The notes under the pieces are model-generated. The model saw only the letters and a list, made by a program, of their open reading frames with translations. It ran no database searches and was not told where the DNA came from. Made by a program: the position numbers and the translations under genes. Below are positions 18,205 to 54,483 of a stretch of 54,765 nt of DNA, one piece after another. This DNA comes from an uncultured bacterium. Lineage in GTDB: Bacteria > Patescibacteriota > Gracilibacteria > UM-FILTER-43-11. Every line of letters begins with the position of its first letter. Within the stretch, counting starts at the first letter, position 1. The DNA lies in the NCBI GenBank assembly GCA_965369815.1, contig CBDUQS010000002.1, positions 1 to 54,765 on the forward strand. The letters are read 5' to 3'.

Positions 18205-21195
18205 TTAGATCTCTTCATCAACAGGAATTGATGGAGTGTCTTCCAAAAGCTCTTCAATCGGTTCTTCAATTGTCTCTTCAGAAGGCTCTTCTTCAGCAGG
18301 CTCCTCAACAGGTGCCTCAACCGGTTTTGGATTTCCTTTAATATTTGCAAATTCCTCAAAAGATAATGAGTTAACAACAGAATCAACTCCATGAATCGAA
18401 ATATTAGCCAAGCGATTACTATTAACCTCAAAAGTAAAATTCAAAATTTTATCGCCTCGTTCGTAATCTTCAATTTTAACCCTCTCAGCAGGAAGTGGCG
18501 TAATAATATTTACCTCAGTAAGCTCAATCCCCTGCTTCGTCAAATAGTCAATCAGCCATAATTCAGATAAATAAGAAATATATTCTTTAACACCTTGGTT
18601 ATCAGCTACTAAAAGCTTGTGATCTGTTGAAATAAAGGTTTTGGAAGCACGATTAAAGGTGCCAGCAAATTCAATCGGCATAATGTCCAATCGAACTTTT
18701 TTAAATTCAACAATATTACGATCAGAATCAGCAAAGCGAATGTCTCGCTCGTCGATAACAAGGTTAAGGGCTACAAATTCTTTAACCGTGGAGCGAACTG
18801 CTTCAACCTCCTGTTCTTTGCCATACAAGGAAGTAAAAACAACATTAACCAAACGATCAATTGAGAGGGTAGAAGGTAAGCCAACATTCTGATCCTCTTT
18901 AAGAGAAATATCAGAAGCAATCTTATTCGATGTATTGTATTTAAAGGAAATTGATGTTTTCCTGTTGTCATCATCTTCAATAAACACATTGGAAACTTTA
19001 AATTCATTCAAGGTTGCTGTGTTTAAAATAGTCATTTGCTGATCACTTGAGATTAAAATCCCAAAACCTTCCAATTCCTTTATCGTCAACTGAATCGCAA
19101 GATCCTGAGCCGTCGCCTGAGAACGAGCCGCCTCTTCACTAGTATCTAAATTTAAGAAATCGACAAGGTCACCTGCATCTGGATCGGGAAGATGATCGAT
19201 CTTAATTGAAGCTTCAGGACTTTTAGCGATACGAACAAAATCATCAAGCGTAAAGCTTCCGCCAAGTGGATCATCATTCAGCACAATGTCATAAATTCCA
19301 TTGGTCGAATAATCGTACTGAGCCGAGAAAGAAACCAAAGTACCATCCTGAGCCCGATCCACGAATCGAGCGCTCTTGATTTCAAATGAAAAAGGATCTT
19401 CTGTATCAACAGCAATATCCTCTTCCAAAAGGGCAATACGAGCAACAGTAAATCGCTGAGAAACCTCATGCAATGTAGGATACAAAATCACATCATCCTG
19501 AGGCTCCTCTTCTTTAAGAATTTCTTCGAATCGTTCAGAAAGCGTCTTATCACGTTCCTGATTGGCCAAATAGTCTTTAAATTGAGCCTGCTCGGCTTCT
19601 TCTTCAGCAGCTGCTCGAAGTGACTGCTCAGCAAAGGCGATCCGATCCGCAAGAAGCGCTGCTTCTTGAATGAATAAGTCACGGGCTGCTGAGGTTTCTT
19701 TTTCTGATAAATTAAGCTGTGAATAGCTCGTTTTTAAGTAAGTTTTTGCCTCCGGGTAGCGAAGGGCAGCAATTAAATATTTGCTTACTTCAAGCCGCTC
19801 TAGGGCGATCTCAAACAAAGTTTCATCACCCTCCTCTGCATTGGCAAGACGGTAATCCCCTATTTTATCCAAAATAGTGAGTAGCTTTGTATCGATTCGA
19901 TCCGCATAAGAAAGAAGAATATTTTGATAAATGCGAACCTGTTGATCAAACTCATCTCGATGAGATTTTTTAAAGCCGGGCTTCCATTGCTCAACCCAGT
20001 GCTCAGTAAGCTCAATAGCCTTCTTATTATCCTCAGAACGAAGTAAATAATCCAAATCAGCCAAATAAGTTCTTAAAATCTCAGGGTTTTTATCTCGAGA
20101 TAATAAATATTGTCTCAAATACTCCTTTGTTAAATAAGCGGAACTTCCTTTGGGGACATTGTAAATTGAATAAAATTGAGATTCTAAAAGATTATTAAAT
20201 AATGGATCCCCAGTTAAGATCTCTTTTAGATCATCTAATTCCGCCAGTAAACTTTCGGCTTTTTCAGAATCATTGTCTTTATGAACACCTCCTAAAAGAT
20301 ATTGAAATTTCAACTCAGCTAACTGAAGTCGTTCCATACGCTTCTGAGAAGGGATAAGAGCTAATTTTTCACGAAACTCATGATACCGACTTCTAACTTC
20401 ATAAATACTTGTTGAATAAATAACATCATTGACACTCAATAAGCGAATGACATCGTTCTTCGCATTTCGCTGAACCCACTCCTCTTCAAAAATAGCAGGT
20501 GAAACAGGTCCCATTTTAAGTTCTTTTTTCATCTTAGTGTATTCCAAACGTGCGTATTCCGGAATAATTTGAGAATCAGCAAATACAATTTGATTTTTAA
20601 GAGGAATGACAAAGCGAGCCAACTCCTCACCGTCAGAGCCTTTTAAATTCAAATCCACGTTCCCAGTAATAGAAAAAACACGGTTGAGAGGCCGATTATA
20701 AGTGTAAGATCCAACAGAATGACTGAATTGAGCATCCCCCCTAGGGGTAGAAATAATAATCGGGTCAAAAGCATTTACCCAAACACTTCCTGATTCAAGC
20801 TGAAAAACAAAACGTGGGAAATGACGACTTAGAAAATGATTTTCTAAAAATCGAATCTCCGTATTCTGATCCAAACGAATCACATTATCCTCAATGCGAA
20901 TTTCTGCAAAGCTCTGATCACCCGTTTTAATATAAGAGTTGGTCAAAAGGACCTGGTCAGGCTGAGCCGATAGATAAGTAGAATCGTAAGGTGTCTTTAG
21001 AGAAACCTCCTGCCCTTCTGAAAACACAATACGAGGGGCTACTTCTCGAAAAGGACCCACTGACTGCTGAACAACAGCAAGGCTAAACCAAGCTGCATTC
21101 ACCAAGAGGAAAAGAAGGCTCAGAAACAATACCTTTTTTGAGAAGTGATAGAGAATACTCTGAGTCGAATTGTCGTTTTGATTTTCGTTTTCCAA
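18205..21195 (-). CDS. giant membrane-anchored envelope protein (996 aa), FecR-like N-terminal beta domain, acidic Pro/Glu tail
   Basis: TTG start. TM helix LFLSLLFLLVNAAWFSLAVV, then a FecR-like block (IKTGDQSFAEIRIEDNVIRLDQNTEIRF), a long helical region, and C-terminal PVEAPVEEPAEEEPSEE. Driven by promoter cassette copy b. Confidence 0.8.
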   Translation of the reverse strand: MENENQNDNSTQSILYHFSKKVLFLSLLFLLVNAAWFSLAVVQQSVGPFREVAPRIVFSEGQEVSLKTPYDSTYLSAQPDQVLLTNSYIKTGDQSFAEIRIEDNVIRLDQNTEIRFLENHFLSRHFPRFVFQLESGSVWVNAFDPIIISTPRGDAQFSHSVGSYTYNRPLNRVFSITGNVDLNLKGSDGEELARFVIPLKNQIVFADSQIIPEYARLEYTKMKKELKMGPVSPAIFEEEWVQRNAKNDVIRLLSVNDVIYSTSIYEVRSRYHEFREKLALIPSQKRMERLQLAELKFQYLLGGVHKDNDSEKAESLLAELDDLKEILTGDPLFNNLLESQFYSIYNVPKGSSAYLTKEYLRQYLLSRDKNPEILRTYLADLDYLLRSEDNKKAIELTEHWVEQWKPGFKKSHRDEFDQQVRIYQNILLSYADRIDTKLLTILDKIGDYRLANAEEGDETLFEIALERLEVSKYLIAALRYPEAKTYLKTSYSQLNLSEKETSAARDLFIQEAALLADRIAFAEQSLRAAAEEEAEQAQFKDYLANQERDKTLSERFEEILKEEEPQDDVILYPTLHEVSQRFTVARIALLEEDIAVDTEDPFSFEIKSARFVDRAQDGTLVSFSAQYDYSTNGIYDIVLNDDPLGGSFTLDDFVRIAKSPEASIKIDHLPDPDAGDLVDFLNLDTSEEAARSQATAQDLAIQLTIKELEGFGILISSDQQMTILNTATLNEFKVSNVFIEDDDNRKTSISFKYNTSNKIASDISLKEDQNVGLPSTLSIDRLVNVVFTSLYGKEQEVEAVRSTVKEFVALNLVIDERDIRFADSDRNIVEFKKVRLDIMPIEFAGTFNRASKTFISTDHKLLVADNQGVKEYISYLSELWLIDYLTKQGIELTEVNIITPLPAERVKIEDYERGDKILNFTFEVNSNRLANISIHGVDSVVNSLSFEEFANIKGNPKPVEAPVEEPAEEEPSEETIEEPIEELLEDTPSIPVDEEI

Positions 21196-21217
21196 AGGGT
21201 TTATTTCAAATTTATCT

Positions 21218-21253
21218 TATTATTATACCAAATTTACCCCTAAAAATCAATAC
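21218..21253 (-). promoter_or_regulatory. promoter cassette copy b, for the 996-aa gene
   Basis: The minus strand reads GTATTGATTTTTAGGGGTAAATTTGGTATAATAATA. -10 is at 21227-21222, -35 at 21250-21245, and the TTG start at 21195. Confidence 0.75.
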
Positions 21254-21270
21254 TATATAAAGCAAGTTTC

Positions 21271-21340
21271 TTGACCCCCTCTAAATCTCCCCCTTAATTA
21301 AGGGGGAGCCGACCCCGAACACGGGGACGGAGGGGGTCAA
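21271..21340. other. GC-rich three-stem structured element (candidate structured RNA or repeat module)
   Basis: Outer stem TTGACCCCCTC/GAGGGGGTCAA (11 bp). It encloses hairpin CTCCCCCTT-aatt-AAGGGGGAG (9 bp) and hairpin CCCCG-aaca-CGGGG (5 bp). Confidence 0.45.
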
Positions 21341-21347
21341 TGTCCTC

Positions 21348-21413
21348 TTGTCATTCCCGCGAAGGCGGGAATCTATAATTTGAATCAGATTCCCGCCTTC
21401 GCGGGAATGACAA
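21348..21413. repeat. GTCATTCC-family element, perfect 26-nt inverted pair
   Basis: TTGTCATTCCCGCGAAGGCGGGAATC (21348-21373), 14-nt spacer, GATTCCCGCCTTCGCGGGAATGACAA (21388-21413). Each arm also has its own CCCGC-gaag-GCGGG hairpin. Confidence 0.85.
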
Positions 21414-21460
21414 ATTAGTTGAACAAATTATTTATACATGAACAATTTTTGTATACAACA

Positions 21461-21495
21461 AAAACTGTAAACTAGAAACTACAAACTGCAAACTG
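21461..21495 (+). repeat. heptamer array NAAACTR x5
   Basis: aaaactg taaacta gaaacta caaactg caaactg, directly 3' of the prfA stop (minus strand). Confidence 0.8.
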
Positions 21496-21499
21496 TTTT

Positions 21500-22594
21500 T
21501 TAACTCTGAAACTGAGCCAATTTTTTCGCCTGATCTTCAATCGTTAATTTTTCAATAATATCCGTAATTTCACCATCCATAATTCCTGGTAAATTACTCC
21601 AACTTTGATGAATGCGATGATCGGTTACACGATCTTGTGGAAAATTGTAAGTTCGAATCTTTTCACTACGATCCCCAGATCCAACCATATCAGACCGCAT
21701 ATCCCCTCTTTCTTTGGCTAACCTCTCTTCTTCAAGTTGATACAAACGTGCTCGAAGAACCGACATAGCTTTTGTCTTATTTTTAAGCTGAGATTTTTCG
21801 TCCTGACAGGTCACCACCAAATTAGTTGGTGTGTGAGTGATGCGAACCGCACTATCCGTTGTATTCACGCTCTGACCACCATTTCCACTACTTCTGTATA
21901 CATCAACACGCAAGTCCTCATCTCGAATTTCAATATCCACTTCTTCTGCCTCTGGCAAAACCGCCACGGTCACCGCCGACGTATGAATACGCCCCTGACT
22001 CTCAGTAGAAGGAATACGCTGAACCCGATGAGTACCACTTTCAAACTTCAACTTACTATAAGCTCCATGCCCATCGATTCTAAAAATAATTTCTTTAATT
22101 CCCCCACTGTCAGCTTCATTTTTATTAATCACTTCTGTTTTAAAATTCTGGTCCTCCGCATAACGCATATATGATCGGGAAAGCTCAGCTGCAAAAAGCG
22201 CCGCCTCTTCCCCGCCAGCCCCTGCCCGAATTTCTACAATCACACTTTTCTCATCATTCGAATCCTTTGGAAGTAAAGCAACCTTCAAATCCTCTTCCAA
22301 CTGTTCTTTTTCTTCTTTAGCTCCAACCAAATCCTCCTTAGCCATTGCAATCATTTCTTCATCTTTTTCAGTACTCAAAAGCTCTTCAGATTCCTCAATA
22401 GTTTTTAAAGCTTTTTCGTAAGCATTAATTAGCTCAACAACAGGGCGAAGCTGAGCCCCCTTTTGACCCAATTTACGAAACAAATCCGGATTCGACGCAT
22501 TATTCGGATCGGAAAGATCCTTATTCACCTGTTCATACTCCGCTTTGATTTGAAGTAGCTTATCGAGCATTTTTAAAAGACTATAACGAGACAA
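21500..22594 (-). CDS. prfA: peptide chain release factor 1
   Basis: 364 aa. RF1 tripeptide region [17 protein letters not shown] and GGQ motif [20 protein letters not shown]. Confidence 0.95.
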
Positions 22595-22670
22595 CGTATA
22601 ACTTATAACAGAAAAAAACCTCCCTCACAACGTCACGACATTATGGTGTCATTAAAACATAACCTTCATG

Positions 22671-22706
22671 GTATTGATTTTTAGAGAGAAATTTGGTATA
22701 ATAATA
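22671..22706 (+). promoter_or_regulatory. promoter cassette copy a: TTGATT-17-TATAAT with TGg extended -10
   Basis: GTATTGATTTTTAGAGAGAAATTTGGTATAATAATA. -35 at 22674-22679, -10 at 22697-22702, and ATG at 22725. Confidence 0.75.
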
Positions 22707-22724
22707 GGATTTAAATAAAAACAA

Positions 22725-23255
22725 ATGCCAGAAGAAAAAAACCAAGCAACAGAAATACAAGAAGACGCTTCCCATCCGGGAGCTCATCACAACAAGCTTC
22801 TCCTTACATGGAAAGCCCCTGAATTCATCAATCACCAGAGAAGTAATCGATGGTTTTGGATAGCAGGAATTCTTGTTCTTCTTCTTGTTCTATATGCGCT
22901 TTACACAAATTCTGCCACGATGGCGATCGTTTTTGTCGTTTTGGCTGGAGTGTACTACCTCACTCACAATCAGGAACCAAAAATAATCGATATCAAATTA
23001 ACTGAATTGGGGATTTACGTGGATCAAAAATTCCATCCATACAATCAAATCAATTCTTTTTGGGTGGTTTACCATCCCCCATTCGTTCATACGTTGAATT
23101 TAAGATTGGGAAACAAGAGTTACACAAAGGTAGCGATACAGCTAGACAATCAAAACCCTGTTGAAGTACGAGAAACACTTGCAAAAGAAATCCCAGAAAT
23201 TGAAGGTGAAGGAGAATCTTTAGGAGACATAATGACCCGATTACTACGACTATAA
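22725..23255 (+). CDS. hypothetical two-TM membrane protein with C-terminal beta-rich domain (176 aa), first gene of orphan operon
   Basis: WKAPEF...RWFWIAGILVLLLVLYALY and MAIVFVVLAGVYYL helices. The stop overlaps the next start (TAATG at 23253-23257). Confidence 0.7.
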   Translation: MPEEKNQATEIQEDASHPGAHHNKLLLTWKAPEFINHQRSNRWFWIAGILVLLLVLYALYTNSATMAIVFVVLAGVYYLTHNQEPKIIDIKLTELGIYVDQKFHPYNQINSFWVVYHPPFVHTLNLRLGNKSYTKVAIQLDNQNPVEVRETLAKEIPEIEGEGESLGDIMTRLLRL

Positions 23256-25681
23256 TGCTTTTACATCTTTTCGATCATCGGGAGCACAAACCAACCTTCC
23301 TTTTTGCAAAGCAGGAAGGGGCTGAAACCGCGACCATTTTTGAAGGCAAAGAGGCAGAGAAGAAAGTCATGGAATCTTTTTTCAATGAAGAGGAGCTTAA
23401 AGAATTAACAAAAAAAAGCCCTGAAGAGGTAAGGCAATTTGTAGATGAGAAATTTGAAGAAAGATTCGGAAAAGAGTCTTACGAAAATGAGCTTGAACAG
23501 CATTTTAAGTCATACAGAGTAGCTCCAATGGTAAAAGAACGGCTAATGAAAGACTCAATGGCGCGATACGAAGCTAACTACCGAAGTACACTCGCCCGTT
23601 TCTATCGTCATACAGAAAGTAAAATCAGTCATTTTGAAGATTTAATGGAAGAAACTCGATCTTCCACACGAGATGAGCTTAGTAAATTAAGCCAAGCGAT
23701 TGAAAACGTTCAAGCAGTCGAGTCATCCACTCCCGAATTAGAAAACGTAGTAAACCCTGTCGAAAAATTAACTTTTGGTGGAACTTGGGCTCATAAAATC
23801 CCACTTGTCGGACCTTTATTTGAACATACCGATATTCCGATTTTATCTCCAGTAATCACGCCAGCAGAGTACCGAGAATACCGAGAATTCCAAGGGGAAA
23901 CCACGGGGCAATTCATTAGTTTTACAGAGGCACTCAGTGATCAATTTCTAAATCCAGATCTAATGGAGGATCATTTAACTAAAGATGAGCTAGATGAATA
24001 CAAAACATTAGCTGGACACGACTGGTTCACTGACGGATTTAGTGATGGAATGGAGGATTACGTTGAAAAACAGCTTAAGGATATATTTGAAAATACAAAA
24101 GACGCTGACGAGCTTAAAAAACAACTCACCCTGTTAAGAGGCTATATTGTTGAAAGATACACGACCTATGCCAATGAAGATGGGTTAATTGATTTACATG
24201 AACTCAGAAGGCTCAATAGAGAAGCAAGTCGCTTTGTTGATTTAACAAGTGAACTAAATAAAACCGAAGACCCAGAAGAAATCATTCGATTGCTGGAAGC
24301 TAATCAATTTATGAAGCCCGAAGTATTAGAAAGAGCAACAGGAGTCATGCTCGACCAAATGCTGAAAGACTCAATCCGAAATGGAACCGAAACCCATTTA
24401 ATTCAATTTGTTGAAGAGAAAACGGGCGAAAGTGATTTAAGCTTCCGCCAAGCAAGCAATAAGCTAGATGAATTAATGAAAGACCGCGTTGAAAGCGGTG
24501 CCGTTGCACTCACCGAGCTAATCACCGAACTGAATGAAGCTGTGAATGGAGAAAGGGTAGAGTTTCTGAAAATTCCTGAAACCGATTCAAAGGCAATGAA
24601 AGGGTTAGCACTCAAACAACGTGACTTAATTTTAAGTCGTCGGATTGAACCAAAGAACGTCGATGATCGGCTTGTGGCCGAATTCATGAGTACAGGGTTT
24701 CTCGGAAGAAAAACAATGCTCGATAATAAAACGGAAAGAGCTGCTCTCTTTCAGGCTATTCAAAGCATTAAAGAGCATTACCCAAGAATCTACAACGAGC
24801 GACACCAAAGTTCAATCTCTGAAACAACAGATATAAGATACAGTGATGACCCCTCTGATCCAAGTGGACACGACAAAATTGCACGACTACTAGCAATGAC
24901 CGCCTTAGCTAAAGAGGCAGGATGGATTGTTGGGAATTTAAGCTCATCGGAGGATTTCAAAGAAGAAAACCTTTCAGTGCAATTAGAAGAGACTGAAATC
25001 GATGAAACTCCCCCAAAAATTTATTCAGAATTTCGAGATCGACTAAAAATGCATTCTACACGCTATCGAACTCAAGCTTCTCGATCGGGATTCAATGGAC
25101 GGGACATAGCACTCAATGGCCTTAAGGTACTAGGCGGAATAACACTCTTAATTAATTACATGAATTTCCGAAAAGAGTATGGAACCATTGAGGGGGCAAT
25201 CAAATTAACTACCAATCCATGGGCTGCCCTTGCAGCTGGAACCGTTTACGGCGCTCATAAAGTTCAAGATCGACCTGAAGTTGCAGGATACCTCTTTGAA
25301 AGCGAAGGAAGTCAAGAACGAATTGCAACCACATTAGGGCTCGACAGTCTTTCTAAGAAGATAGGAAGGCATCCTCTACTTTCTTTTATAGGAAATGCAA
25401 ATGAATTCAAAGCAATGTCCTCTCTCATGAAAGATCCACAAGAAGGGGTGAATATTATTGGACAATTAAATAAAAAAGCAGTGGAAAGAGATGGGAAAAA
25501 TCCCGTGATCACAAAAGATGACCTTAAGGAGGCGTTGAATACCGCAACTGGAAGTGATGCTGTATGGAGTCAGTTACCCAACTTCTCAAACGACCGAACT
25601 CGATACCTATTTTATTCAAAATTCCTAACCAAGGCCAGAAACGTCCGTCAGCTCAAGCACAACTGCGAAACCTGGATTTAA
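23255..25681 (+). CDS. hypothetical 808-aa acidic helical protein with two C-proximal hydrophobic helices
   Basis: Translationally coupled to the upstream gene. Hydrophobic LKVLGGITLLINYMNF and WAALAAGTVYGA lie near residues ~620-670. No recognisable domain. Confidence 0.75.
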   Translation: MLLHLFDHREHKPTFLFAKQEGAETATIFEGKEAEKKVMESFFNEEELKELTKKSPEEVRQFVDEKFEERFGKESYENELEQHFKSYRVAPMVKERLMKDSMARYEANYRSTLARFYRHTESKISHFEDLMEETRSSTRDELSKLSQAIENVQAVESSTPELENVVNPVEKLTFGGTWAHKIPLVGPLFEHTDIPILSPVITPAEYREYREFQGETTGQFISFTEALSDQFLNPDLMEDHLTKDELDEYKTLAGHDWFTDGFSDGMEDYVEKQLKDIFENTKDADELKKQLTLLRGYIVERYTTYANEDGLIDLHELRRLNREASRFVDLTSELNKTEDPEEIIRLLEANQFMKPEVLERATGVMLDQMLKDSIRNGTETHLIQFVEEKTGESDLSFRQASNKLDELMKDRVESGAVALTELITELNEAVNGERVEFLKIPETDSKAMKGLALKQRDLILSRRIEPKNVDDRLVAEFMSTGFLGRKTMLDNKTERAALFQAIQSIKEHYPRIYNERHQSSISETTDIRYSDDPSDPSGHDKIARLLAMTALAKEAGWIVGNLSSSEDFKEENLSVQLEETEIDETPPKIYSEFRDRLKMHSTRYRTQASRSGFNGRDIALNGLKVLGGITLLINYMNFRKEYGTIEGAIKLTTNPWAALAAGTVYGAHKVQDRPEVAGYLFESEGSQERIATTLGLDSLSKKIGRHPLLSFIGNANEFKAMSSLMKDPQEGVNIIGQLNKKAVERDGKNPVITKDDLKEALNTATGSDAVWSQLPNFSNDRTRYLFYSKFLTKARNVRQLKHNCETWI

Positions 25682-25687
25682 TTCAAT

Positions 25688-25715
25688 ATTCTTAATCCTT
25701 AATCCTTAGTCCTTA
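25688..25715 (+). repeat. heptamer array ATTCTTA ATCCTTA ATCCTTA GTCCTTA
   Basis: Fills the spacer between the 808-aa gene stop and the ATG at 25721. Confidence 0.85.
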
Positions 25716-25720
25716 CCTAA

Positions 25721-25981
25721 ATGATCAACGAAATTCCAAAACCACAAGAAGGTCAAGAAAATCTCTCCACGAGAGAAAGGCAAGGAATGGTAAAAAATCG
25801 AGTGAATCAACAGGGAGAAAAAATGACTCCCCGATTAGCTGGACAAAAAAGAGTACAACCAAACGAGCAACAAACAAACACTCCTTCCAATAAAGCTAAA
25901 AAAGGCATGGGCAAATGGGCCATTGCTGCCGTATCTGGCAGTGCTGCCGCCGGAGGACTTGTAACCTATTTAATAAGTTAA
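25721..25981 (+). CDS. hypothetical 86-aa basic peptide with C-terminal small-residue TM tail
   Basis: Gln/Lys/Asn-rich N-terminal part, then WAIAAVSGSAAAGGLVTYLIS. Lies 4 nt upstream of the next gene. Confidence 0.55.
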   Translation: MINEIPKPQEGQENLSTRERQGMVKNRVNQQGEKMTPRLAGQKRVQPNEQQTNTPSNKAKKGMGKWAIAAVSGSAAAGGLVTYLIS

Positions 25982-25985
25982 AAAT

Positions 25986-28358
25986 ATGAATCGCATCAAA
26001 CAAACAATAAAAGGATTATTTTTAACCGCATTGATTGTGGGGGCCTTTGGTTTAAACTTAAACGCTCAGTGGTCAAGTGATGCAGGTAAAACTACAAGCG
26101 TAAGCACTCATATTGAAAACTTACTAACTACCAATACTTTTGCTGCAACGGCACAGGAAATACAAAGAGAAATGGACGAAATAAAAACAAGGGGAGAACA
26201 GGGAAATGCACGCGCGGGAGATGCGGAAAAGCTAGAGACACTAGGTCAAGACCTAGAGGCGGCAGAAGAGCTAGGTGATCAAGTAGAATACAAAATATCT
26301 GAAAAACTCAAAACAGCAATCTTAGGAGCCTCCGATCTTATTAATAAAGTTTTCGACCCCGCCATATTCACCATCACCAACTCTATAGGAGGTCTACTGG
26401 GGAACGACTATATTTTTGCGGGAGCTATGGGGAAAATGCTCCATGAAATATGGGTGGTAAGTCGAAATATCGTCAATATTGTATTCGTTCTCATCCTCTT
26501 ATTTTTAGCCCTACGTCATATTTTTGGATCAGAAGAAAGCAGTGAATTAAAAAAAGCATTGCCCAAGTTTGTCATTATGCTGATCGCCATCAACTTTTCA
26601 TGGCTAGGAGCACGATTAGTTCTAGATGCCGCCAATGTCGCCACCAATGTCGCCTTTGCAATTCCAGCGGGAACAAAGGGGATAGTGGAACTGGAAGCAG
26701 AAGAATGTAACCTTAATAACAACGGAGGGGCAGAAGGAAGCTGTGGGCTTGTTTCCCTATACAAACCCTTTGATGCAACTGACGACAGCAGTATCATAAT
26801 AAAAACCGAAGAGGACAAGGAAGCAAAATGCAACCTAAAAGCTTTATACGACGACGCCTATGGAGTCGACGCAGATGGGGAAAAGATAGAAGGGTATACC
26901 CCCCCTGGCAAAGAGAATGCATATTATCAAACAACCACCTACTGCTGGGAAAACAGAAAACTTGATAAATTCAGTAAAAGCAATGCGGCTTATCATTTAA
27001 CCTATAGCATGGCAAAGGTACAAAACTTGCCCAAAGCCACTGCAGTAGGAACCACGGCTGAAACCTTTGCCAAAATTGGGATTGGAACCTTGTTTTCGCT
27101 CTTCTTTCAAATTGTTTATTTAATTGCATTTGCATCTTTATTCATAGTCCTCATCTTCCGTGTAGCCGCCTTGTGGTTCATGGTAGCCTTTTCACCCTTT
27201 TTAGTTCTTCTGCTCTATCTATCGCAAGACAGTCAACTAAGTGGGATAGGGAAAAGTATTGAGAGTAAATTCAGCATTGCACAATTCGCCAATTGGGCAT
27301 TCGCCCCTGCAAAAGTTGGCCTAGTGTGGTCAGTTGGATTTCTTATGATAACAACGGGGCAAATATCGACAAAAGAGGTTGCAGTAGCCCTAAATAAGAC
27401 GGGGGATATCACCTCATACGGTTTTTCTGTCAGCTCTCTTTATATGGGAATGGAAAGCATTCAAGAGCTAATGTGGCTCTTAATGACCATTGGAATTATA
27501 TGGGTAGGAACCTTTGCCGTATTCAGTGATCTTGCCGTGGTGAACACCATAACCGATAAGATAAAAAATTACGGAAATGACTTTGCGAAAGAGGTGGCAA
27601 TGTCACCAACATGGGCACCAATCATGCCAATGATTGATCCAAAAACAGGAGGATTAAAACTTGGTTCTTACGGTAAAACAGCAGGTCCTGTTGGAATGCT
27701 TCAAAAAGCGAAAGCCTATCATACAGGTACAGACGATAGGAAATTCGAGAATGCCCACGAAAAACTCAAGACAGCAAAAGATCGAAACCCAAGTGACTTT
27801 GCTAAAATCAGTACTGGAAGTGATGAAGATAGATTTAAAGCCTTTAGTCGACTATCAGGATTAAGCGCTGCAGAAATCAGTAGTGATCCTAGAAAGGTAA
27901 AGAGCATGTTAAAAGATCTAGGAGTCGACGAGAGACACTCTCAGCGAATTATAGACCATGCTGACAAGAACAAAGGGAAACTTGATAGTCCAACTGACAC
28001 AAAGGTGACAGCAGCGGCTTCGTTCTCTGGTACAGACATGAAAACTGCGGTTGCTAGCGCATTAAGTGGAGATCCAAGTTTGAAAAAAATGGCTGAAAAA
28101 GCAGGGGTAAGCCATGAACAAGTGGAGCAACATCTAAGTGCAAAAGATAGAGATTTCAAAAACCTATCAAGAAATGATGTTGAAGAAGCAATAAGACTTG
28201 GTGAGGAAGATGTTATTAAGGATAAAAAGAGGGGCGATGTTAGTGACGCACCAACAACAACATCAGATCCAGCAGCGGATGCAGCAGCGGCAAGGGCAGC
28301 AGCAGATGCAGCAGAAGGAAGAGCGCCAAGAGAAGGACAACCGCCACCGCAAGTGTAA
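25986..28358 (+). CDS. polytopic membrane protein (790 aa), VirB6/TrbL-like topology, long charged C-terminal tail
   Basis: Signal/TM LFLTALIVGAFGLNLNAQ. Helices IVNIVFVLILLFLAL, FVIMLIAINFSWLGARLVL, IGTLFSLFFQIVYLIAFASLFIVLIF, WFMVAFSPFLVLLLYL, VGLVWSVGFLMITTG and LMWLLMTIGIIWVGTFAVF. A 4-Cys loop and an Ala/Pro-rich end. Confidence 0.75.
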   Translation: MNRIKQTIKGLFLTALIVGAFGLNLNAQWSSDAGKTTSVSTHIENLLTTNTFAATAQEIQREMDEIKTRGEQGNARAGDAEKLETLGQDLEAAEELGDQVEYKISEKLKTAILGASDLINKVFDPAIFTITNSIGGLLGNDYIFAGAMGKMLHEIWVVSRNIVNIVFVLILLFLALRHIFGSEESSELKKALPKFVIMLIAINFSWLGARLVLDAANVATNVAFAIPAGTKGIVELEAEECNLNNNGGAEGSCGLVSLYKPFDATDDSSIIIKTEEDKEAKCNLKALYDDAYGVDADGEKIEGYTPPGKENAYYQTTTYCWENRKLDKFSKSNAAYHLTYSMAKVQNLPKATAVGTTAETFAKIGIGTLFSLFFQIVYLIAFASLFIVLIFRVAALWFMVAFSPFLVLLLYLSQDSQLSGIGKSIESKFSIAQFANWAFAPAKVGLVWSVGFLMITTGQISTKEVAVALNKTGDITSYGFSVSSLYMGMESIQELMWLLMTIGIIWVGTFAVFSDLAVVNTITDKIKNYGNDFAKEVAMSPTWAPIMPMIDPKTGGLKLGSYGKTAGPVGMLQKAKAYHTGTDDRKFENAHEKLKTAKDRNPSDFAKISTGSDEDRFKAFSRLSGLSAAEISSDPRKVKSMLKDLGVDERHSQRIIDHADKNKGKLDSPTDTKVTAAASFSGTDMKTAVASALSGDPSLKKMAEKAGVSHEQVEQHLSAKDRDFKNLSRNDVEEAIRLGEEDVIKDKKRGDVSDAPTTTSDPAADAAAARAAADAAEGRAPREGQPPPQV

Positions 28359-31059: not shown

Positions 31060-31099
31060 TTTTTATTTTGAAGAGAGTGGACTCACAGTCAACAAACAG

Positions 31100-31127
31100 T
31101 ATATACCACTCTAACTGACACTTACAA
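31100..31127 (-). promoter_or_regulatory. promoter of the ATPase gene (TTGTAA-16-TATATA, TGg extended -10)
   Basis: The minus strand reads TTGTAAGTGTCAGTTAGAGTGGTATATA. It shares the TTAGAG...TGGTATA elements of the cassette, with a shorter spacer between them. Confidence 0.5.
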
Positions 31128-34292: not shown

Positions 34293-36914
34293 TTAATTAA
34301 CGTTGTTTTTTTGAACAATTTTTCGCTTGTGATGATAGAGGAAGTACGCAAAAACAAATGAGAACAAAATAACCCAATTCGTCTCAGGGCCTGTTTTATC
34401 GGTGCTAGGCACACGACTCAATTGATCCCGATGAATATTTTGATCGAAAGACCCAGAACTAGGAGGATTCACCTGTCCACTGTCATAAGGGATTGGTGAA
34501 GGAGCAGAAGGACGGAATCCAGCACCAGAAGGCATTGCTAGAACTTCCTGAGAAAGAGGTGAAATTTGCTGACCATTAACATCCAGCGCTGCCACCGAAA
34601 AATAATAAGGAACATTGTTAATCAAATCATAAACGGTAGCCGATGTACGATTATCCGCCGTTACAATCGAATCATTGTACTGCATAGGAGCAAAGCCCAT
34701 CGAAATACGATAGTAATAAGCCTGAACTCCTGGGAATTGAGGCCATGAAAGTGATACAGAGCTATCGAATGGAATGGCTTGAATCTGATTAACAGTTGAA
34801 CCTGAAAAAGGATTGTTATAAGGATTGTTATTTGGATCAAATACAGGATTTTGATTTTGATTTGAATCAACAACAGGAACTTCAGGCTCTGGCTCAATAT
34901 TACAAGTTAAACCAGACCACCCTTCATCACATTCACAAACTCCTTCGCTACAAACACCATAGTCTCCACATTGAATATTTTCACAAAGGTCAGGAGCAAT
35001 CGGTGTTACAGCAATGGTCACACTCTTTTCTTCACTCTCCAATCCTTGGCTATCCACAGCGGTAACCGCAATAAAATACTGGGTTTCGTTGTTAAGACCA
35101 CGAAGCTCCCAAGCAGGAGTATCATCTTGTGTATCCATTGTCTGATCCATACTCTCCATTTGAGCCCCATAATAAAGACGATAATGCTGAACCGGTCGTT
35201 CATGAGATTCAAGTGAAGTCCATTCCAACTGAACGAAAGAATCACCAACAATACCTTCAAGACCTTCTACCTGAGGAGGGCTATTGGGCTTGGGTGTCAA
35301 AACTTCAATAATTCCTTTGTTGGTAAATTCACCGCGATTCGAAAGAGAATCAAGTAAAATCACATCCACAGGAAATTGACCATCTTGAACGGGTGAAACT
35401 ACGGTCACTTCATAGGTTCCAGGATCGGTTTCATTCATAAACTCTTCAACGCCTTGAACACGAACTTTTGCCTCTTCAAGGCCTGGTTCAGAAGTTAAAG
35501 AAATAGAAACTTGAGTGCCAGGAACCACAGGTCCATCGACGTCCATTTCAAATGAATTCAAAACGGGTGGAAGTGTATCAATAGTAACTGTAATTGCTTT
35601 AGAAACTTCGCTATTTTCAGTCATCACATAAAACACATGAACACTGCTTTCAAGATTCTGAACCTCAAAGCTGAAAAACCCGTCTGCATCCGTTTCTGTA
35701 TCTCCAATCTTCACATCGTTATCAAAAACCTTAAGGTTAATGTTCTCATTCCCCTGCCCTGTTAAAATAACCAAATTACTTCCCAGTTCCGATCCATCTC
35801 CAGGAGATTTAATCATAATATCATCAGAAGTTGGCGATTGAACAACAGACTGTTCTGGAACCACTTCAATAGAATATTCACCAGCAATCTTAAAGCTGCT
35901 TTTATCAAAAATTTGAACCACCTGATTACCAAGCTTTGTGAATTCCAAAGAGAGATCAAAAGTAAATTTACCCTGATCAGAAGCTTTAAAAGTATATTCA
36001 CCATTACTCGGTAAAATTGCATTGTCATCTTCAGGAACTGAAATAAGAATCGTTCCCGTATAGTTTTTAGCGGTATTATTATCGTTATCTTGAGCCACTA
36101 CGGTCATTGAAAGCTGTTCACCCACCTTAACTGTAGAAGGAAGTCCCTGGATAGAAAAATGATCCACAGGGCCAGGTAAAACATCACCATCTCCTCCAAT
36201 GTCTGCTTTCAAAAGATCGATAAATGAATTATTGGAAACCTTTGGAGCAACGGGGGTAAAAAACACAACCTCCTCTCGATCGCTCAAAACCTGATTCATC
36301 GTCACATCCATCGCCGTAAAAACCGAAACTCCAGGAAAATTTGAAGTGACTTTAAAATTCGTTCGTCCATTCTGATCCGTCACCCCTTCCTGTAAAACTT
36401 CAATACTGTCTTCTGGGCGACTGGAAATCAATTTAACTAAATGATCTTTAATTGGATTACGGTACTGATCGTAAAGCGTTACCACCAAAAAGGTTACATC
36501 ACTACCAGCCTCTACCATCTGTACAGTGCTTCGAAGTGAAGACTGGGAAGCAGAAACAGAATCTGGATAAACCGTGAAAATTGACTGAGGAGAAGAATTA
36601 TCCGAACCTGGATAAACCACCGCTGACCTATAAGATCCCGCAATCTTAGTCTGATGACCAAAGAAATCAGTTTTAGCTACCCCATCCATATCCGCCTGAG
36701 CAGGAATTTGAATCACAGCACCATCGGGTTTCTCCACCACAAATCGCACATCCTGATAAGGATCCACGAGCGACGTACGAAGCGCAGACGGGTAGCCTGC
36801 AACGGTATCAGTCGCATACACCTGAACTGGTAGAAAATCAGCCGAAACAGTTGGCATAAAAATCGCTAAAGCGATCATGGAAATAAAAAAGTTTTTTAAT
36901 GTTTGGAATTTCAC
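34293..36914 (-). CDS. giant tail-anchored surface protein: Big/Ig-like domains, FN3 - EGF-like - FN3, C-terminal TM
   Basis: 873 aa, GTG start, signal peptide MIALAIFMPTVSA. Invasin-type Ig block (VTFLVVTLYDQYRNPIKDHLV...TDQNGRTNFKVTS) and two FN3-like units. 6-Cys CENIQCGDYGVCSEGVCECDEGWSGLTC and TM WVILFSFVFAYFLY. Promoter cassette copy c. Confidence 0.85.
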   Translation of the reverse strand: MKFQTLKNFFISMIALAIFMPTVSADFLPVQVYATDTVAGYPSALRTSLVDPYQDVRFVVEKPDGAVIQIPAQADMDGVAKTDFFGHQTKIAGSYRSAVVYPGSDNSSPQSIFTVYPDSVSASQSSLRSTVQMVEAGSDVTFLVVTLYDQYRNPIKDHLVKLISSRPEDSIEVLQEGVTDQNGRTNFKVTSNFPGVSVFTAMDVTMNQVLSDREEVVFFTPVAPKVSNNSFIDLLKADIGGDGDVLPGPVDHFSIQGLPSTVKVGEQLSMTVVAQDNDNNTAKNYTGTILISVPEDDNAILPSNGEYTFKASDQGKFTFDLSLEFTKLGNQVVQIFDKSSFKIAGEYSIEVVPEQSVVQSPTSDDIMIKSPGDGSELGSNLVILTGQGNENINLKVFDNDVKIGDTETDADGFFSFEVQNLESSVHVFYVMTENSEVSKAITVTIDTLPPVLNSFEMDVDGPVVPGTQVSISLTSEPGLEEAKVRVQGVEEFMNETDPGTYEVTVVSPVQDGQFPVDVILLDSLSNRGEFTNKGIIEVLTPKPNSPPQVEGLEGIVGDSFVQLEWTSLESHERPVQHYRLYYGAQMESMDQTMDTQDDTPAWELRGLNNETQYFIAVTAVDSQGLESEEKSVTIAVTPIAPDLCENIQCGDYGVCSEGVCECDEGWSGLTCNIEPEPEVPVVDSNQNQNPVFDPNNNPYNNPFSGSTVNQIQAIPFDSSVSLSWPQFPGVQAYYYRISMGFAPMQYNDSIVTADNRTSATVYDLINNVPYYFSVAALDVNGQQISPLSQEVLAMPSGAGFRPSAPSPIPYDSGQVNPPSSGSFDQNIHRDQLSRVPSTDKTGPETNWVILFSFVFAYFLYHHKRKIVQKNNVN

Positions 36915-36951
36915 GGGTTTATTTGGTTTAATTTGTTTTTATTTAAATCTT

Positions 36952-36985
36952 TATATTATACCAAATTTCTCTCTAAACATCAATC
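36952..36985 (-). promoter_or_regulatory. promoter cassette copy c, for the 873-aa surface protein gene
   Basis: The minus strand reads GATTGATGTTTAGAGAGAAATTTGGTATAATATA. It shares 23 nt perfectly with copy a. The GTG start is at 36914. Confidence 0.75.
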
Positions 36986-37039
36986 ATATATAGGGGTATA
37001 AAACAAGATAAGTCAAATACGTCAATATCTTTTGGATTC

Positions 37040-40301: not shown

Positions 40302-40403
40302 AAGATCTCTAAAGAAATCCTATTATTTTAGCAGATTTAAGCCATTTTTTCAACTGGGTAGGGTTGCGGAAAGCAGAAAGTATTTTATAAAATTTTCAAA
40401 TTC

Positions 40404-53250: not shown

Positions 53251-53285
53251 CAATCTAAAATCTGAAATCTGAGATCAGAGATATT
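53251..53285 (+). repeat. heptamer array (A/C)A(A/G)ATCTR x5
   Basis: caatcta aaatctg aaatctg agatcag agatatt, abutting the pilT stop. Confidence 0.75.
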
Positions 53286-54465
53286 ATTGTTCTTCCTTTT
53301 GAATGAATTGGTTCAATTGCTCCTGATTAATGACACCACGCTCAGAAAGCTGGTAAGCATAGCTATCCATGGTGATCATCCCCTGCTCTGCAGAAGATTG
53401 GATGGCGGTTCGAAGTTGAACAAAATTACCACGCTTAATCACATTCCGAATACTGTCATTCATAAACATAAACTCAAACACTGCAATCAAACCAGGTTGA
53501 TCCTGACGCTGAACCAAATCCTGCGCCAAAGCACTAGTTAGGTTGTCAGAAAGACGATCCTGAGCTTGTTTTCGAAGATCCTGAGGATAGAGGCTAATAA
53601 TACGCTCAATTGTCTGAGGAACATCACGAGTGAGCATAGAAGCAATCACTAAATGACCCGTTTCAACCAAATTAAGTAATTTATCAAAGGTTTCGAAGTC
53701 GTTCACCTCATCCAGCATCACAATGTTCGCATCCTCACGAATTGCAGACTGCAAAGCATTTTCTTTTAAAAGAGTATCTTTTCCTACCTCTCTCTGAGTA
53801 AACATCGACTTTTCATTTTCAAACACATATTCAATTGGATTTTCGATGGTAAGAACATGTTGAACAAAATTTTTGTTCACATGCTGAAGCATTGACTGAA
53901 TGGTAGTCGATTTACCAGACCCAGCAGTTCCACAAACTAAAATAAGTCCTTCACGAAGGCCAAGAAAACCTTTCACGGCCTCTGGGACCCCCAATTCCTC
54001 TAAAGTTGGAATGTTTTTTGAAATCATACGCATAACACAAGCCAATTTACCTTTTTGGAAAAACGCATTCACACGAAAGTTAACTCCATTGGTATGAGTG
54101 AAAGAAAAGTCAATTTCACGATCCTTTTCAAGTCGAGCACCCTCCTCTTCACTAGAAATCATCAAATTAAGCATAGCCTCTGTGTCTTCTTTAGTAAGAG
54201 CCTCAATATTTTCAACAAAAATAATTTTACCCCCCACACGAAGAGCAACACGCGATCCCTCACGAAAGTGAACATCAGACGCTCCTTTTTCAATACATAA
54301 ATTAACCAACTGATCCAAAGTAATTTTAACGTCTGAAGACCCTTCAGCTACTGAAGTAGTAGTATCAGCGGCGTCAGATGTAGCAACAACTGGGGCTTGG
54401 GGCTCAACTGCCTGAGGGGCAGGAGTGATAGCGGGCTGAGAAGGATTAATGTTTGCGTCTTCCAT
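53284..54465 (-). CDS. pilT: PilT-family type IV pilus retraction ATPase with Ala/Pro/Thr-rich N-terminal extension
   Basis: 393 aa. DVHFREGSRVALRVGG, Walker A GTAGSGKSTT, Asp-box AIREDANIVMLDE, His-box region GHLVIASMLTRD (variant of GHLVFGTLHT). Confidence 0.85.
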   Translation of the reverse strand: MEDANINPSQPAITPAPQAVEPQAPVVATSDAADTTTSVAEGSSDVKITLDQLVNLCIEKGASDVHFREGSRVALRVGGKIIFVENIEALTKEDTEAMLNLMISSEEEGARLEKDREIDFSFTHTNGVNFRVNAFFQKGKLACVMRMISKNIPTLEELGVPEAVKGFLGLREGLILVCGTAGSGKSTTIQSMLQHVNKNFVQHVLTIENPIEYVFENEKSMFTQREVGKDTLLKENALQSAIREDANIVMLDEVNDFETFDKLLNLVETGHLVIASMLTRDVPQTIERIISLYPQDLRKQAQDRLSDNLTSALAQDLVQRQDQPGLIAVFEFMFMNDSIRNVIKRGNFVQLRTAIQSSAEQGMITMDSYAYQLSERGVINQEQLNQFIQKEEQ

Positions 54466-54483
54466 AATAATTAATTAGAAAAA

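What the first reader, a model, noticed from the sequence alone, without database searches (positions are those of the whole stretch)
21218..22706. Near-identical ~36-nt promoter cassette drives the orphan operon and two giant envelope proteins
Three blocks are almost the same sequence. Copy (a) is on the plus strand at 22671-22706: GTATTGATTTTTAGAGAGAAATTTGGTATAATAATA. Copy (b) is on the minus strand at 21218-21253: GTATTGATTTTTAGGGGTAAATTTGGTATAATAATA. Copy (c) is on the minus strand at 36952-36985: GATTGATGTTTAGAGAGAAATTTGGTATAATATA. Each parses as TTGAT(T/G)-17 nt-TATAAT with a TGg extended -10, about 15-35 nt upstream of a start codon. Copies a and c share 23 nt perfectly; copies a and b share 14+18 nt. 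Conservation of the spacer, which RNA polymerase does not need, points to a shared regulator site or recent cassette spread. The cassette links the 22725-28358 operon, the 996-aa FecR-like protein and the 873-aa FN3/EGF adhesin into one putative regulon. The ATPase promoter (31100-31127) carries the TTAGAG...TGGTATA pieces with a shorter spacer.
Basis: seen in the sequence. Interest (0 to 1): 0.72.

Follow-up and report, generated by a model that had tools for sequence, protein, structure and literature searches.

The report
Conserved strong promoter for envelope genes
Three nearly identical promoter-plus-leader blocks in this Peregrinibacteria genome are real. They belong to a phylum-wide promoter class that sits in front of the same few cell-envelope and secretion genes in every relative examined, and it is most likely read by RNA polymerase itself rather than by a special regulator.

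Summary
The three blocks are at the stated coordinates. The 23-mer with up to 3 mismatches hits only these three sites, against 0 expected.

The a/c similarity runs 54 nt at 93%, from the -35 element to the start codon of copy a.

The window is from a Candidatus Peregrinibacteria genome. I found relatives by protein similarity, not by DNA pattern. In them, every ortholog of the 176-aa operon, the 996-aa gene and the 873-aa fn3 gene keeps the same promoter type. None of about 100 neighbouring genes has it.

All 16 protein-anchored promoters share these features:
- TTG at -35
- a 17-nt spacer
- TGn followed by TATAAT
- a 5-nt A/T discriminator
- GAT

Elsewhere in the phylum the same block precedes PrgI/VirB3-like, PilT-like, MscS-type, M23/SLH and 3D-domain genes. 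tRNA and rpsB promoters lack it.

The spacer fits the four-region layout (T-tract, GC-richer centre, AT-tract, G-rich end with TG) published as general for sigma-70 promoters. A regulator site is therefore not needed to explain it. Orthologous conservation rules out recent spread. The ATPase promoter is a different type.

Best reading: an all-elements-optimal primary-sigma promoter class reserved for envelope genes. Expression is untested.

The parts
22664..22724 (+). Cassette a. -35 TTGATT at 22674-22679; 17-nt spacer at 22680-22696 (TTTAGAGAGAAATTTGG, with TGG as the extended -10); -10 TATAAT at 22697-22702; discriminator AATAG at 22703-22707; GAT at 22708-22710 (predicted start A at 22709); A/U-rich leader up to ATG 22725.
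   Evidence: The leader is unstructured, with minimum free energy 0 kcal/mol.
21196..21260 (-). Cassette b. -35 TTGATT at 21250-21245; spacer TTTAGGGGTAAATTTGG; -10 TATAAT at 21227-21222; discriminator AATAA at 21221-21217; GAT at 21216-21214; leader GATAAATTTGAAATAAACCCT up to TTG 21195.
36915..36993 (-). Cassette c. -35 TTGATG at 36983-36978; spacer TTTAGAGAGAAATTTGG; -10 TATAAT at 36960-36955; discriminator ATAAA at 36954-36950; GAT at 36949-36947; leader GATTTAAATAAAAACAAATTAAACCAAATAAACCC up to GTG 36914.
   Evidence: The first 18 nt of the leader are identical in the ortholog on L128, whose protein is 51% identical.
22725..28358 (+). Operon driven by a. Four genes: 176 aa (one hydrophobic segment called at my cut-off, residues 43-61; weak DUF5673 hit), 808 aa (no family), 86 aa, and 790 aa (signal peptide plus about 4 transmembrane segments, no family or fold match).
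   Evidence: Gene order is conserved in L120-L127.
18205..21195 (-). 996-aa single-pass membrane protein driven by b. It has a sub-threshold FecR-type domain at residues 89-156.
   Evidence: Orthologs on L029/L082 (51% identical over about 950 aa), L120, L121 and L124 keep the promoter type.
34293..36914 (-). 873-aa secreted Big_1 / fn3 / EGF-like surface protein driven by c. The GTG start at 36914 gives a normal signal peptide, MKFQTLKNFFISMIALAIFMPTVSA.
   Evidence: Orthologs on L128-L131 keep the promoter type.
40317..40353 (-). Weak, peripheral member: the promoter of the 485-aa PG_binding_1 protein (38844-40301). It reads TTGAAA, 17 nt (ending TGC), TAAAAT, AATAG, GATTT. It is the best non-cassette matrix score in the window (4.6 bits).
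   Evidence: It is not conserved in orthologs.
53284..54765 (-). PilT-like ATPase (53284-54465) and the cut-off 3' end of a surface-protein gene (54490-54732 aligned). In the close relative L001 this two-gene unit is preceded by the same cassette. In the window that cassette would lie beyond the right edge.
31098..31127 (-). NOT a member: the promoter of the 845-aa VirD4/TrwB-like ATPase. It shares the string TTAGAG..TGGTATA, but its orthologs conserve only their own -10, GTATA(TA)CT.
   Evidence: ATPase family.

Best explanation
The three blocks are copies of a discrete promoter-plus-leader class that is conserved across Candidatus Peregrinibacteria.

In this class every element that RNA polymerase with its primary (sigma-70/SigA-type) sigma factor can read is at or near its optimum:
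- TTG at -35.
- An exact 17-nt spacer laid out as T-tract, GC-richer centre, AT-tract, then TGn.
- A perfect TATAAT.
- A 5-nt A/T-only discriminator.
- A fixed G-A-T at the predicted start (A is the 7th base after the -10).
- A short, unstructured A/U-rich leader, in a lineage that does not use Shine-Dalgarno sequences.

The class is reserved for a limited set of cell-envelope, secretion and surface genes. It most likely gives them uniformly high, largely constitutive expression.

The spacer is conserved because the polymerase senses its composition and shape, not because a separate regulator sits on it. In the window's own sub-lineage the spacer is frozen almost base for base (TTTAGRGNKAAATTTGG). 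This looks like purifying selection toward one lineage-specific optimum, perhaps helped by gene conversion.

Shown: the sequence anatomy, its discreteness, its orthologous conservation and its gene association.
Inferred: that the primary sigma reads it, where transcription starts, and that it is strong.
For: 1. The class is discrete. Window copies score 63-70 bits and the next site 4.6 bits.

2. It is conserved at orthologous positions. I found loci by protein similarity, not by DNA pattern. All 7 operon orthologs, 3 orthologs of the 996-aa gene and 4 orthologs of the fn3 gene have it. None of about 100 other genes in those loci scores above 0.

3. Together with the 3 window copies this gives 16 promoters. 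All 16 share TTG, a 17-nt spacer, TGn, TATAAT, an A/W4 discriminator and GAT. Genome GC ranges from 35% to 54%.

4. The features travel together. In 356 kb of Peregrinibacteria DNA there are 46 TGnTATAAT sites. 34 have GAT at +6 to +8, and 33 of those have TTG placed 17 nt upstream. 11 of the 12 without GAT lack that TTG; the exception is the L051 variant, which has GAA.

5. The spacer layout and the AT-rich 5-bp discriminator match what Kuo et al. 2025 report as general for sigma-70 promoters. They found that spacer composition changes promoter strength by up to 600-fold (PMC12641261).

6. The spacer centre differs between genomes (AGAGAG, GGGGT, GCCG, CACAG, CTCTCT) and has no dyad symmetry.

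7. The leaders are unstructured, with minimum free energy of 0, -1.4 and 0 kcal/mol. The lineage lacks Shine-Dalgarno motifs: GGAG and GAGG occur upstream of 0 of 102 genes.

8. The downstream genes are all envelope or secretion proteins: PrgI/VirB3-like, PilT-like, MscS-type, M23+SLH, 3D+PG-binding, and large surface proteins.
Against: - There are no expression data and no mapped 5' ends. Strength and start site are inferred.
- If this were simply 'the strong promoter', tRNA and ribosomal-protein promoters should have it. Seven tRNA promoters and rpsB do not, and neither does the T4SS pilin gene (11350-11781, with the family). Something about the gene set matters.
- The invariant GAT is purine-purine-pyrimidine, not the YRY start element reported as the general optimum.
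- The near-identity inside the window genome is 0.78-0.94 at variable positions, against about 0.50 between genomes (permutation p = 0.003). This is more than a loose compositional optimum predicts.
- The sample of each genome is local. It covers syntenic regions and pattern-selected contigs, not whole genomes.
Confidence: 0.6

Rival explanations
1. A true regulon with a dedicated trans-acting factor. A transcription factor, an alternative or lineage-modified sigma factor, or a start-site-dependent mechanism recognises the non-canonical invariants. These are the A/T discriminator, GAT at the start, and in this sub-lineage TTTAG...AAATTT. The factor co-regulates the envelope and secretion genes, for example on host contact.
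For: - The gene set is restricted and functionally coherent.
- Stable-RNA and rpsB promoters are excluded.
- GAT is invariant yet is not the general YRY start optimum.
- Non-orthologous promoters within one genome resemble each other more than orthologous promoters between genomes. This fits co-evolution with a factor encoded in that genome.
- Leaders of unrelated genes share a recurrent TTGAA(A/C)C motif at about +8 to +14.
Against: - There is no dyad or direct-repeat operator.
- The spacer centre is not conserved between genomes.
- The -35 and -10 are those of a housekeeping sigma factor, not of sigma-54, sigma-28 or ECF types.
- No DNA-binding regulator gene is linked to the loci. The window holds only a histidine kinase and a receiver-only protein, at 5463-7268.
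- The within-genome signal is weak once the window genome is removed (p = 0.09).
Confidence: 0.22
2. Recent duplication, or ongoing gene conversion, of a promoter cassette within this genome. In this reading the reader's 'cassette spread' is the main reason the three copies are nearly identical.
For: - Identity among the window copies is 0.78-0.94 at positions that vary between genomes. Other genomes show only 0.44-0.61.
- The a/c identity runs 54 nt, including the leader.
Against: - The cassette is at the orthologous position for all three genes in distant relatives, so it was not recently inserted.
- The leader GATTTAAATAAAAACAAA of copy c is also present in the L128 ortholog, whose protein is 51% identical.
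- The exact spacer TTTAGAGAGAAATTTGG also occurs in L076, where the protein is 62% identical, and in L093 in front of a different gene. Selection, not recent copying, therefore preserves these bases.
- Similarity stops at about -45 and +20, with no inverted ends or target duplications.
Confidence: 0.12
3. A generic promoter or a chance resemblance. The three blocks are simply ordinary promoters of an AT-rich genome.
For: Extended -10 promoters (TGnTAWAAT preceded by a T-tract) are the common promoter type in the window.
Against: - 0 of 100 shuffles gives even one 23-mer hit.
- Matrix scores are bimodal.
- About 100 neighbouring genes and all the tRNA genes lack it.
Confidence: 0.02

Closest known systems
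Sigma-70/SigA housekeeping promoters with an extended -10 (TGn), as in Firmicutes and E. coli
   Same: TTG at -35, a 17-bp spacer, TGn, a perfect TATAAT, and a purine 7 nt downstream. This matches the canonical architecture.
   Different: - Only TTG of the -35 hexamer is fixed.
- The discriminator and the start triplet are invariant.
- The whole unit, including the leader, is conserved across a phylum, but only for a particular set of genes.
The four-region spacer, 5-bp discriminator and 3-bp 'start' element model of bacterial core promoters (Kuo et al., Nucleic Acids Res 2025, PMC12641261)
   Same: The spacer runs T-tract, GC-enriched centre, AT-tract, then a G-rich end with TG. The discriminator is 5 bp and AT-rich, as that paper reports for Terrabacteria. 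C is enriched just upstream of the -35.
   Different: The start triplet here is GAT (purine-purine-pyrimidine), not YRY or YRR. In the window's sub-lineage the spacer is fixed almost base for base, not merely in composition.
Operator-in-spacer regulons, such as MerR-type or repressor-occluded promoters
   Same: Conserved sequence lies between -35 and -10 in front of a functionally related gene set.
   Different: There is no dyad symmetry. The spacer is the optimal 17 bp, not the 19-20 bp of MerR-type promoters. The spacer centre varies between genomes. No linked regulator gene was found.
Patescibacterial type IV secretion and type IV pilus gene sets (PMC12102498)
   Same: Several cassette-driven genes belong to or resemble these systems: PrgI/VirB3-like, PilT-like, and the neighbouring VirD4/TrwB-like ATPase. 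That paper notes that the T4SS often lies near the origin of replication, a location it calls 'super-expressed'.
   Different: That work does not describe promoters. The 176/808/86/790 operon has no detectable homology to T4SS parts, and the predicted structure of the 790-aa protein has no match among solved structures.

Membership tests
Primary-sigma (sigma-70/SigA) promoter with extended -10 | -35 element TTGnnn and -10 element TATAAT separated by 16-18 bp | tested here: met
   TTG, 17 nt and TATAAT are present in all 3 window copies and in all 16 promoters of the protein-anchored set.
Primary-sigma (sigma-70/SigA) promoter with extended -10 | TG one base upstream of the -10 hexamer | tested here: met
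   TGG, TGC or TGA in 16 of 16.
Primary-sigma (sigma-70/SigA) promoter with extended -10 | Transcripts start 6-8 nt downstream of the -10, and the holoenzyme binds | not testable with these tools
   No RNA 5'-end or binding data are available. A purine (A of GAT) lies 7 nt after the -10 in every copy.
Optimal core promoter as described by Kuo et al. 2025 | Spacer organised as T-tract, GC-enriched centre, AT-tract, G-rich end with TG | tested here: met
   Column counts: spacer positions 1-3 are mostly T, positions 5-9 are G/C-enriched, positions 10-15 are A/T, and TG then G or C follows.
Optimal core promoter as described by Kuo et al. 2025 | YRY (or YRR) start element centred on the transcription start site | tested here: not met
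   The triplet is GAT in 16 of 16 promoters. If the A is +1, the base at -1 is a purine.
Repressor or activator operator shared by a regulon | A conserved dyad-symmetric or direct-repeat site of about 12-20 bp | tested here: not met
   There is no dyad in the cassette. The only symmetric element is AAATTT. The central 5-6 nt differ between genomes.
Repressor or activator operator shared by a regulon | A cognate DNA-binding regulator encoded in the genome, often nearby | tested here: inconclusive
   Pfam annotation of the window finds only a histidine kinase and a receiver-only protein. The rest of the genome was not available.
Mobile promoter cassette (MITE or IS outward-facing promoter) | Terminal inverted repeats or target-site duplications, and presence/absence variation at orthologous sites | tested here: not met
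   Similarity ends at about -45 and +20 without inverted ends. The cassette is present at every orthologous site examined.
Alternative-sigma promoters (sigma-54, sigma-28, ECF) | Their characteristic consensus elements: GG-N10-GC at -24/-12, TAAA-N15-GCCGATAA, or GAAC-N16-CGTC-like | tested here: not met
   Direct reading of the sequence shows none of these. The elements present are the housekeeping TTG and TATAAT. The consensus sequences are from established knowledge.
Structured 5' leader (riboswitch, thermometer, attenuator) | A stable conserved RNA structure, or a match to an Rfam family | tested here: not met
   Rfam finds no match apart from one tRNA. Leaders fold at 0, -1.4 and 0 kcal/mol, no better than shuffled sequence.

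The most novel reading that the evidence does not exclude
The invariant A/T discriminator plus GAT start, together with the lineage-frozen spacer, is the recognition signature of a dedicated control layer. That layer could be a factor acting at the start site, a modified sigma-polymerase specificity, or initiating-nucleotide sensing or capping. It would switch the whole host-interaction surface of Peregrinibacteria as one unit: T4SS/PrgI, PilT, cell-wall hydrolases, giant adhesins and the orphan 176/808/86/790 module. If so, the motif would give a sequence-only way to enumerate the epibiont 'attachment regulon' in uncultured genomes.
Probability: 0.2. Interest if true: 0.65.

Novelty: new member of a known kind. 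Interest (0 to 1): 0.4.

Why it matters
Almost nothing is known about transcription signals in Peregrinibacteria or in most of the candidate phyla radiation. Three searches of the held paper library for promoter descriptions in these groups found none for Peregrinibacteria.

A compact motif (TTGnnn, 14 nt, TGnTATAAT, five A/T bases, GAT) marks the same envelope and secretion genes across the phylum. This gives three things:
- A sequence-only way to nominate co-expressed, probably highly expressed, surface and host-interaction genes in uncultured genomes. These include orphan genes such as the 176/808/86/790 operon.
- A candidate strong native promoter and leader for future genetic tools.
- A natural example in which spacer, discriminator and start-site positions are under selection as strong as that on the -10 box.

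It does not by itself reveal a new mechanism.

Tried and rejected
- Exact look-up of the 176-aa protein in public assemblies found nothing on record.
- The genome-collection scan with a strict pattern gave only one relative, L001. The source genome itself was not found.
- About 100 of the 118 metagenome pattern hits are unrelated sequences from other organisms. Only about 17 are cassette-type.
- The idea that the cassette encodes a small peptide was rejected. A 16-codon ORF exists in copy a and in L001, but copy b lacks its ATG and copy c has a stop after four codons (direct reading).
- A riboswitch or other structured leader was rejected.
- A non-canonical ribosome-binding motif in the leaders (AAACC/GAACC) shows only 2.6-fold enrichment, in 20 of 102 genes. 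It is not specific to the cassette.
- The ATPase promoter as a fourth copy was rejected.
- The PG-binding-protein promoter as a conserved member was rejected. It resembles the cassette only in this genome.
- Assigning a function to the orphan operon failed:
  - Pfam, NCBIfam and a sequence search against solved structures gave nothing for the 808-aa and 790-aa proteins.
  - An AlphaFold model of the 790-aa protein (mean pLDDT 72.5) has no Foldseek match in the PDB (best E = 1.5). The idea that it is a divergent VirB6 is therefore unsupported.
- No paper describing promoters of Peregrinibacteria or Patescibacteria was found in the held paper library.
Full report
**Observation**

The 23-mer TTAGAGAGAAATTTGGTATAATA with up to three mismatches matches only these three sites in the 54.8-kb window. 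It matched nothing in 100 dinucleotide-preserving shuffles.

The repeat finder shows that the similarity is longer than reported. Copies a and c are 93% identical over 54 nt (22673-22726 vs 36931-36984), from the -35 element through the untranslated leader to the ATG of a. Copies a and b are 88% identical over 43 nt. Each copy parses as TTGAT(T/G), 17 nt, TATAAT, with TGG just before the -10. In the 19.5-kb region scanned only five sites reach 10 of 12 consensus matches, and of those only these three also have TG before the -10.

**Organism and gene context**

A collection scan with the cassette pattern found one genome hit, a Candidatus Peregrinibacteria assembly (L001). Its protein is 86% identical to the truncated gene at the window's right edge. 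Homologs of the window proteins are named Peregrinibacteria by NCBI. The window has 40% GC.

The genes behind the three copies are:
- a: a four-gene operon with no family assignment, encoding proteins of 176, 808, 86 and 790 aa.
- b: a 996-aa single-pass membrane protein with only a sub-threshold FecR-type hit.
- c: an 873-aa secreted Big_1/fn3/EGF-like protein.

An 845-aa VirD4/TrwB-like ATPase is encoded convergently to the operon.

**Is it just the generic promoter?**

It is not. Other promoters in the window are of the common type, a T-tract followed by TGnTAWAAT, and usually have no good -35. I built a 61-nt weight matrix from 18 cassette copies, 3 from the window and 15 from related contigs. 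It scores the three window copies at 63-70 bits and the next best window site at 4.6 bits. The three window copies were part of the training set, so the informative result is the gap to every other site.

The following do not have the cassette: the rpsB promoter, the tRNA-Arg promoter, six tRNA promoters in related loci, and the T4SS pilin gene.

**Related sequences**

A metagenome scan with TTTAGNNNNAAATTTGGTATAAT returned 118 loci. About 17 of these also share three features that the pattern did not force:
- TTG exactly 6 nt upstream of the pattern match.
- A purine-rich NNNN.
- A(W)(W)A(N)GAT after the -10.

The genes downstream of these copies are:
- orthologs of the 176-aa operon (L076, L078)
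- orthologs of the 996-aa gene (L029/L082)
- PrgI/VirB3-family proteins (L093, L027)
- a PilT-like ATPase (L062)
- MscS-type TM-helix proteins (L015, L022, L052)
- an M23 peptidase with SLH domains, and a 3D-domain/PG-binding protein (L072)
- small coiled-coil proteins (L002, L051)

In L001 the cassette drives a 379-aa surface protein followed by a PilT-like ATPase. The window's right end carries the orthologous pair, so a fourth cassette probably lies just beyond the window.

**The decisive test: orthologs found by protein, not by DNA pattern**

I took homologs of the 176-aa and 873-aa proteins and fetched their contigs. Synteny is well conserved in most of these loci (L123 and L126 have different neighbours upstream of the operon). 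The order is: 996-aa gene, RF1, the four-gene operon, the convergent ATPase, a gene of about 200 aa, PfkB, sometimes an MFS transporter, then the fn3 gene.

In these loci the only positive matrix scores belong to three groups of promoters:
- the operon orthologs: 7 of 7, scoring 23.5-50.6 bits
- the 996-aa orthologs: 3 of 3, scoring 31-36 bits
- the fn3 orthologs: scoring 18-38 bits on L128-L130. The fourth, on L131, was not scored with the matrix; one search found all the invariant elements there.

About 100 other genes all score below zero.

Aligning the 16 promoters shows invariant TTG, a 17-nt spacer, TGn, TATAAT, a discriminator of A followed by four mostly A/T bases, and GAT. The genomes range from 35% to 54% GC.

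In 356 kb of Peregrinibacteria DNA there are 46 TGnTATAAT sites. Of these, 34 have GAT at +6 to +8, and 33 of those 34 have TTG 17 nt upstream. Of the 12 without GAT, 11 lack that TTG; the exception is the L051 variant, which has GAA. The features therefore form one composite signature.

**What the spacer conservation means**

Kuo et al. (Nucleic Acids Res 2025, PMC12641261) analysed mapped start sites in 49 bacteria and large mutant libraries. They report four findings relevant here:
- Sigma-70 spacers have four regions: a T-rich tract, a weakly GC-enriched region, a second AT-tract, and a G-rich end that includes TG.
- Spacer composition changes promoter strength by up to 600-fold.
- The dominant discriminator is 5 bp long and is AT- or AG-rich in Terrabacteria.
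- A 3-bp 'start' element is centred on the transcription start site.

The cassette spacer TTTA-GAGAG-AAATTT-GG is a textbook instance of that layout, and the discriminator fits too.

Between genomes the spacer centre is free (AGAGAG, GGGGT, GCCG, CACAG, CTCTCT, CCTCTC). It contains no dyad. This argues against a classical operator.

One departure remains. The invariant GAT is purine-purine-pyrimidine, not YRY.

**Concerted similarity within genomes**

I compared the positions that vary between genomes. Identity between different genes within one genome is 0.63 on average. Between genomes it is 0.50, and it makes no difference whether the genes are orthologous (permutation p = 0.003).

The effect comes mainly from the window genome, at 0.78-0.94. 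Without that genome p = 0.09.

The exact spacer TTTAGAGAGAAATTTGG recurs in L076, whose protein is only 62% identical, and in front of an unrelated gene in L093. The leader GATTTAAATAAAAACAAA of copy c recurs in the L128 ortholog, whose protein is 51% identical. These bases are therefore held by selection in a sub-lineage, not by a recent copying event. Gene conversion may contribute.

**Leader**

This lineage essentially lacks Shine-Dalgarno sequences. GGAG and GAGG occur upstream of 0 of 102 genes, and start-codon contexts are A/T-rich. The cassette leaders are 16-35 nt long, A/U-rich and unstructured. This suits SD-independent initiation. Rfam finds nothing in the region.

**The ATPase promoter**

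The string TTAGAGTGGTATA is present. Orthologous ATPase promoters share only their own -10, GTATA(TA)CT, and none of the cassette. It is not a member.

**Conclusion**

The best-supported reading is a phylum-wide class of primary-sigma promoters, with leader, in which every element is near its optimum. The class is reserved for envelope, secretion and surface genes.

A separate regulator is possible but not required. The gene-set specificity, the non-YRY GAT and the genome-specific homogenisation keep that possibility alive at about 0.2. Recent cassette spread is not supported.

No start sites or expression levels could be checked here. A whole-genome census and metatranscriptome 5' ends are the decisive missing data.

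I tried to give the orphan operon a function and failed. The 790-aa polytopic membrane protein has a moderate-confidence model (mean pLDDT 72.5) with no match among solved structures.

Noticed in passing
window 3476-3490, 11793-11807, 21462-21495, 25688-25715, 31139-31183, 32997-33029, 43448-43469, 44022-44042, 47769-47804, 53250-53276; also L129, L123, L131, L002/L029/L076: Period-7 tandem repeats with a different unit sequence in each array fill the intergenic regions. My own scan finds 9 period-7 arrays, 8 of them in the 8.5% of the window that is intergenic; Tandem Repeats Finder adds shorter ones such as 3476-3490 and 11793-11807. Periods 5, 6, 8, 9 and 10 give 0-3 arrays each. Several arrays sit directly upstream of start codons or just after stop codons. 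Related loci have them too, in three cases directly upstream of the cassette -35. From memory, they resemble the cyanobacterial heptanucleotide STRR repeats. Their function is unknown.
   Followed up: partly
window, all genes; L121, L124, L128, L129: Shine-Dalgarno motifs are essentially absent. GGAG and GAGG occur in the 25 nt upstream of 0 of 102 genes. Start-codon contexts are A/T-rich (TAAA and ATAA are enriched 4-5-fold). AACC is mildly enriched (2.6-fold).
   Followed up: partly
window 21275-21413: A cluster of GC-rich hairpins lies between the 3' end of the RF1 gene and promoter b. It includes the perfect palindrome CTCCCCCTTAATTAAGGGGGAG (about 21288-21309). It also includes a 27-nt perfect inverted repeat (21348-21374 and 21387-21413) in which each arm is itself a hairpin (CCCGCGAAGGCGGG). 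This is probably a terminator or insulator. Related TTGTCATTCC... arms occur at 49276-49323 and 53179-53226.
   Followed up: no
window 4541-4619, 43365-43443, 49142-49180: A 79-nt direct repeat (87% identity) is built from 12-nt tandem units (CCACTATACGGT / ACCGAATAGTGG). It is present in three intergenic regions.
   Followed up: no
window 46438-46522 and 48368-48438: 71-nt inverted repeats (75% complementary) made of 11-nt AGCAATTTGAA units flank the aminotransferase gene and the 186-aa gene (46533-48369).
   Followed up: no
window 22725-31059; L120, L124, L125, L127-L131: The 176/808/86/790 operon and a convergently encoded VirD4/TrwB-like ATPase carrying DUF8128 form a module conserved across Peregrinibacteria. 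None of the operon's four proteins reaches a family's cut-off. The AlphaFold model of the 790-aa membrane protein has no match in the PDB.
   Followed up: partly
window 31065-31127; upstream regions of ATPase orthologs in L120, L127, L129, L130: Most ATPase orthologs keep their own conserved -10-like box, GTATA(TA)CT, distinct from the cassette. The match is clear in the window, L120, L127, L129 and L130. L124 has only GTATATTT, and L125 has none.
   Followed up: partly
L082 (promoter of the 176-aa ortholog), L131 (promoter of the fn3 ortholog), L129: The spacer centre is a GA or CT tract in either orientation: AGAGAG in the window, L076, L093 and L129, and CTCTCT or CCTCTC in L082 and L131. 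The tract may matter as a structure rather than as a strand-specific sequence.
   Followed up: no
window 22571-22724; L120 9924-10000: Promoter a shares a short intergenic region (77 nt in L120, about 150 nt in the window) with the divergently transcribed RF1 gene. The reverse complement of TATAATA is TATTATA, which is itself -10-like. The cassette region might therefore also serve RF1.
   Followed up: no
window 5463-7268 and 11350-11781: The window encodes a histidine kinase with a PilJ-type N-terminal domain, followed by a receiver-only response regulator. It also encodes a T4SS pilin (PF18895) gene that has an ordinary, non-cassette promoter.
   Followed up: no
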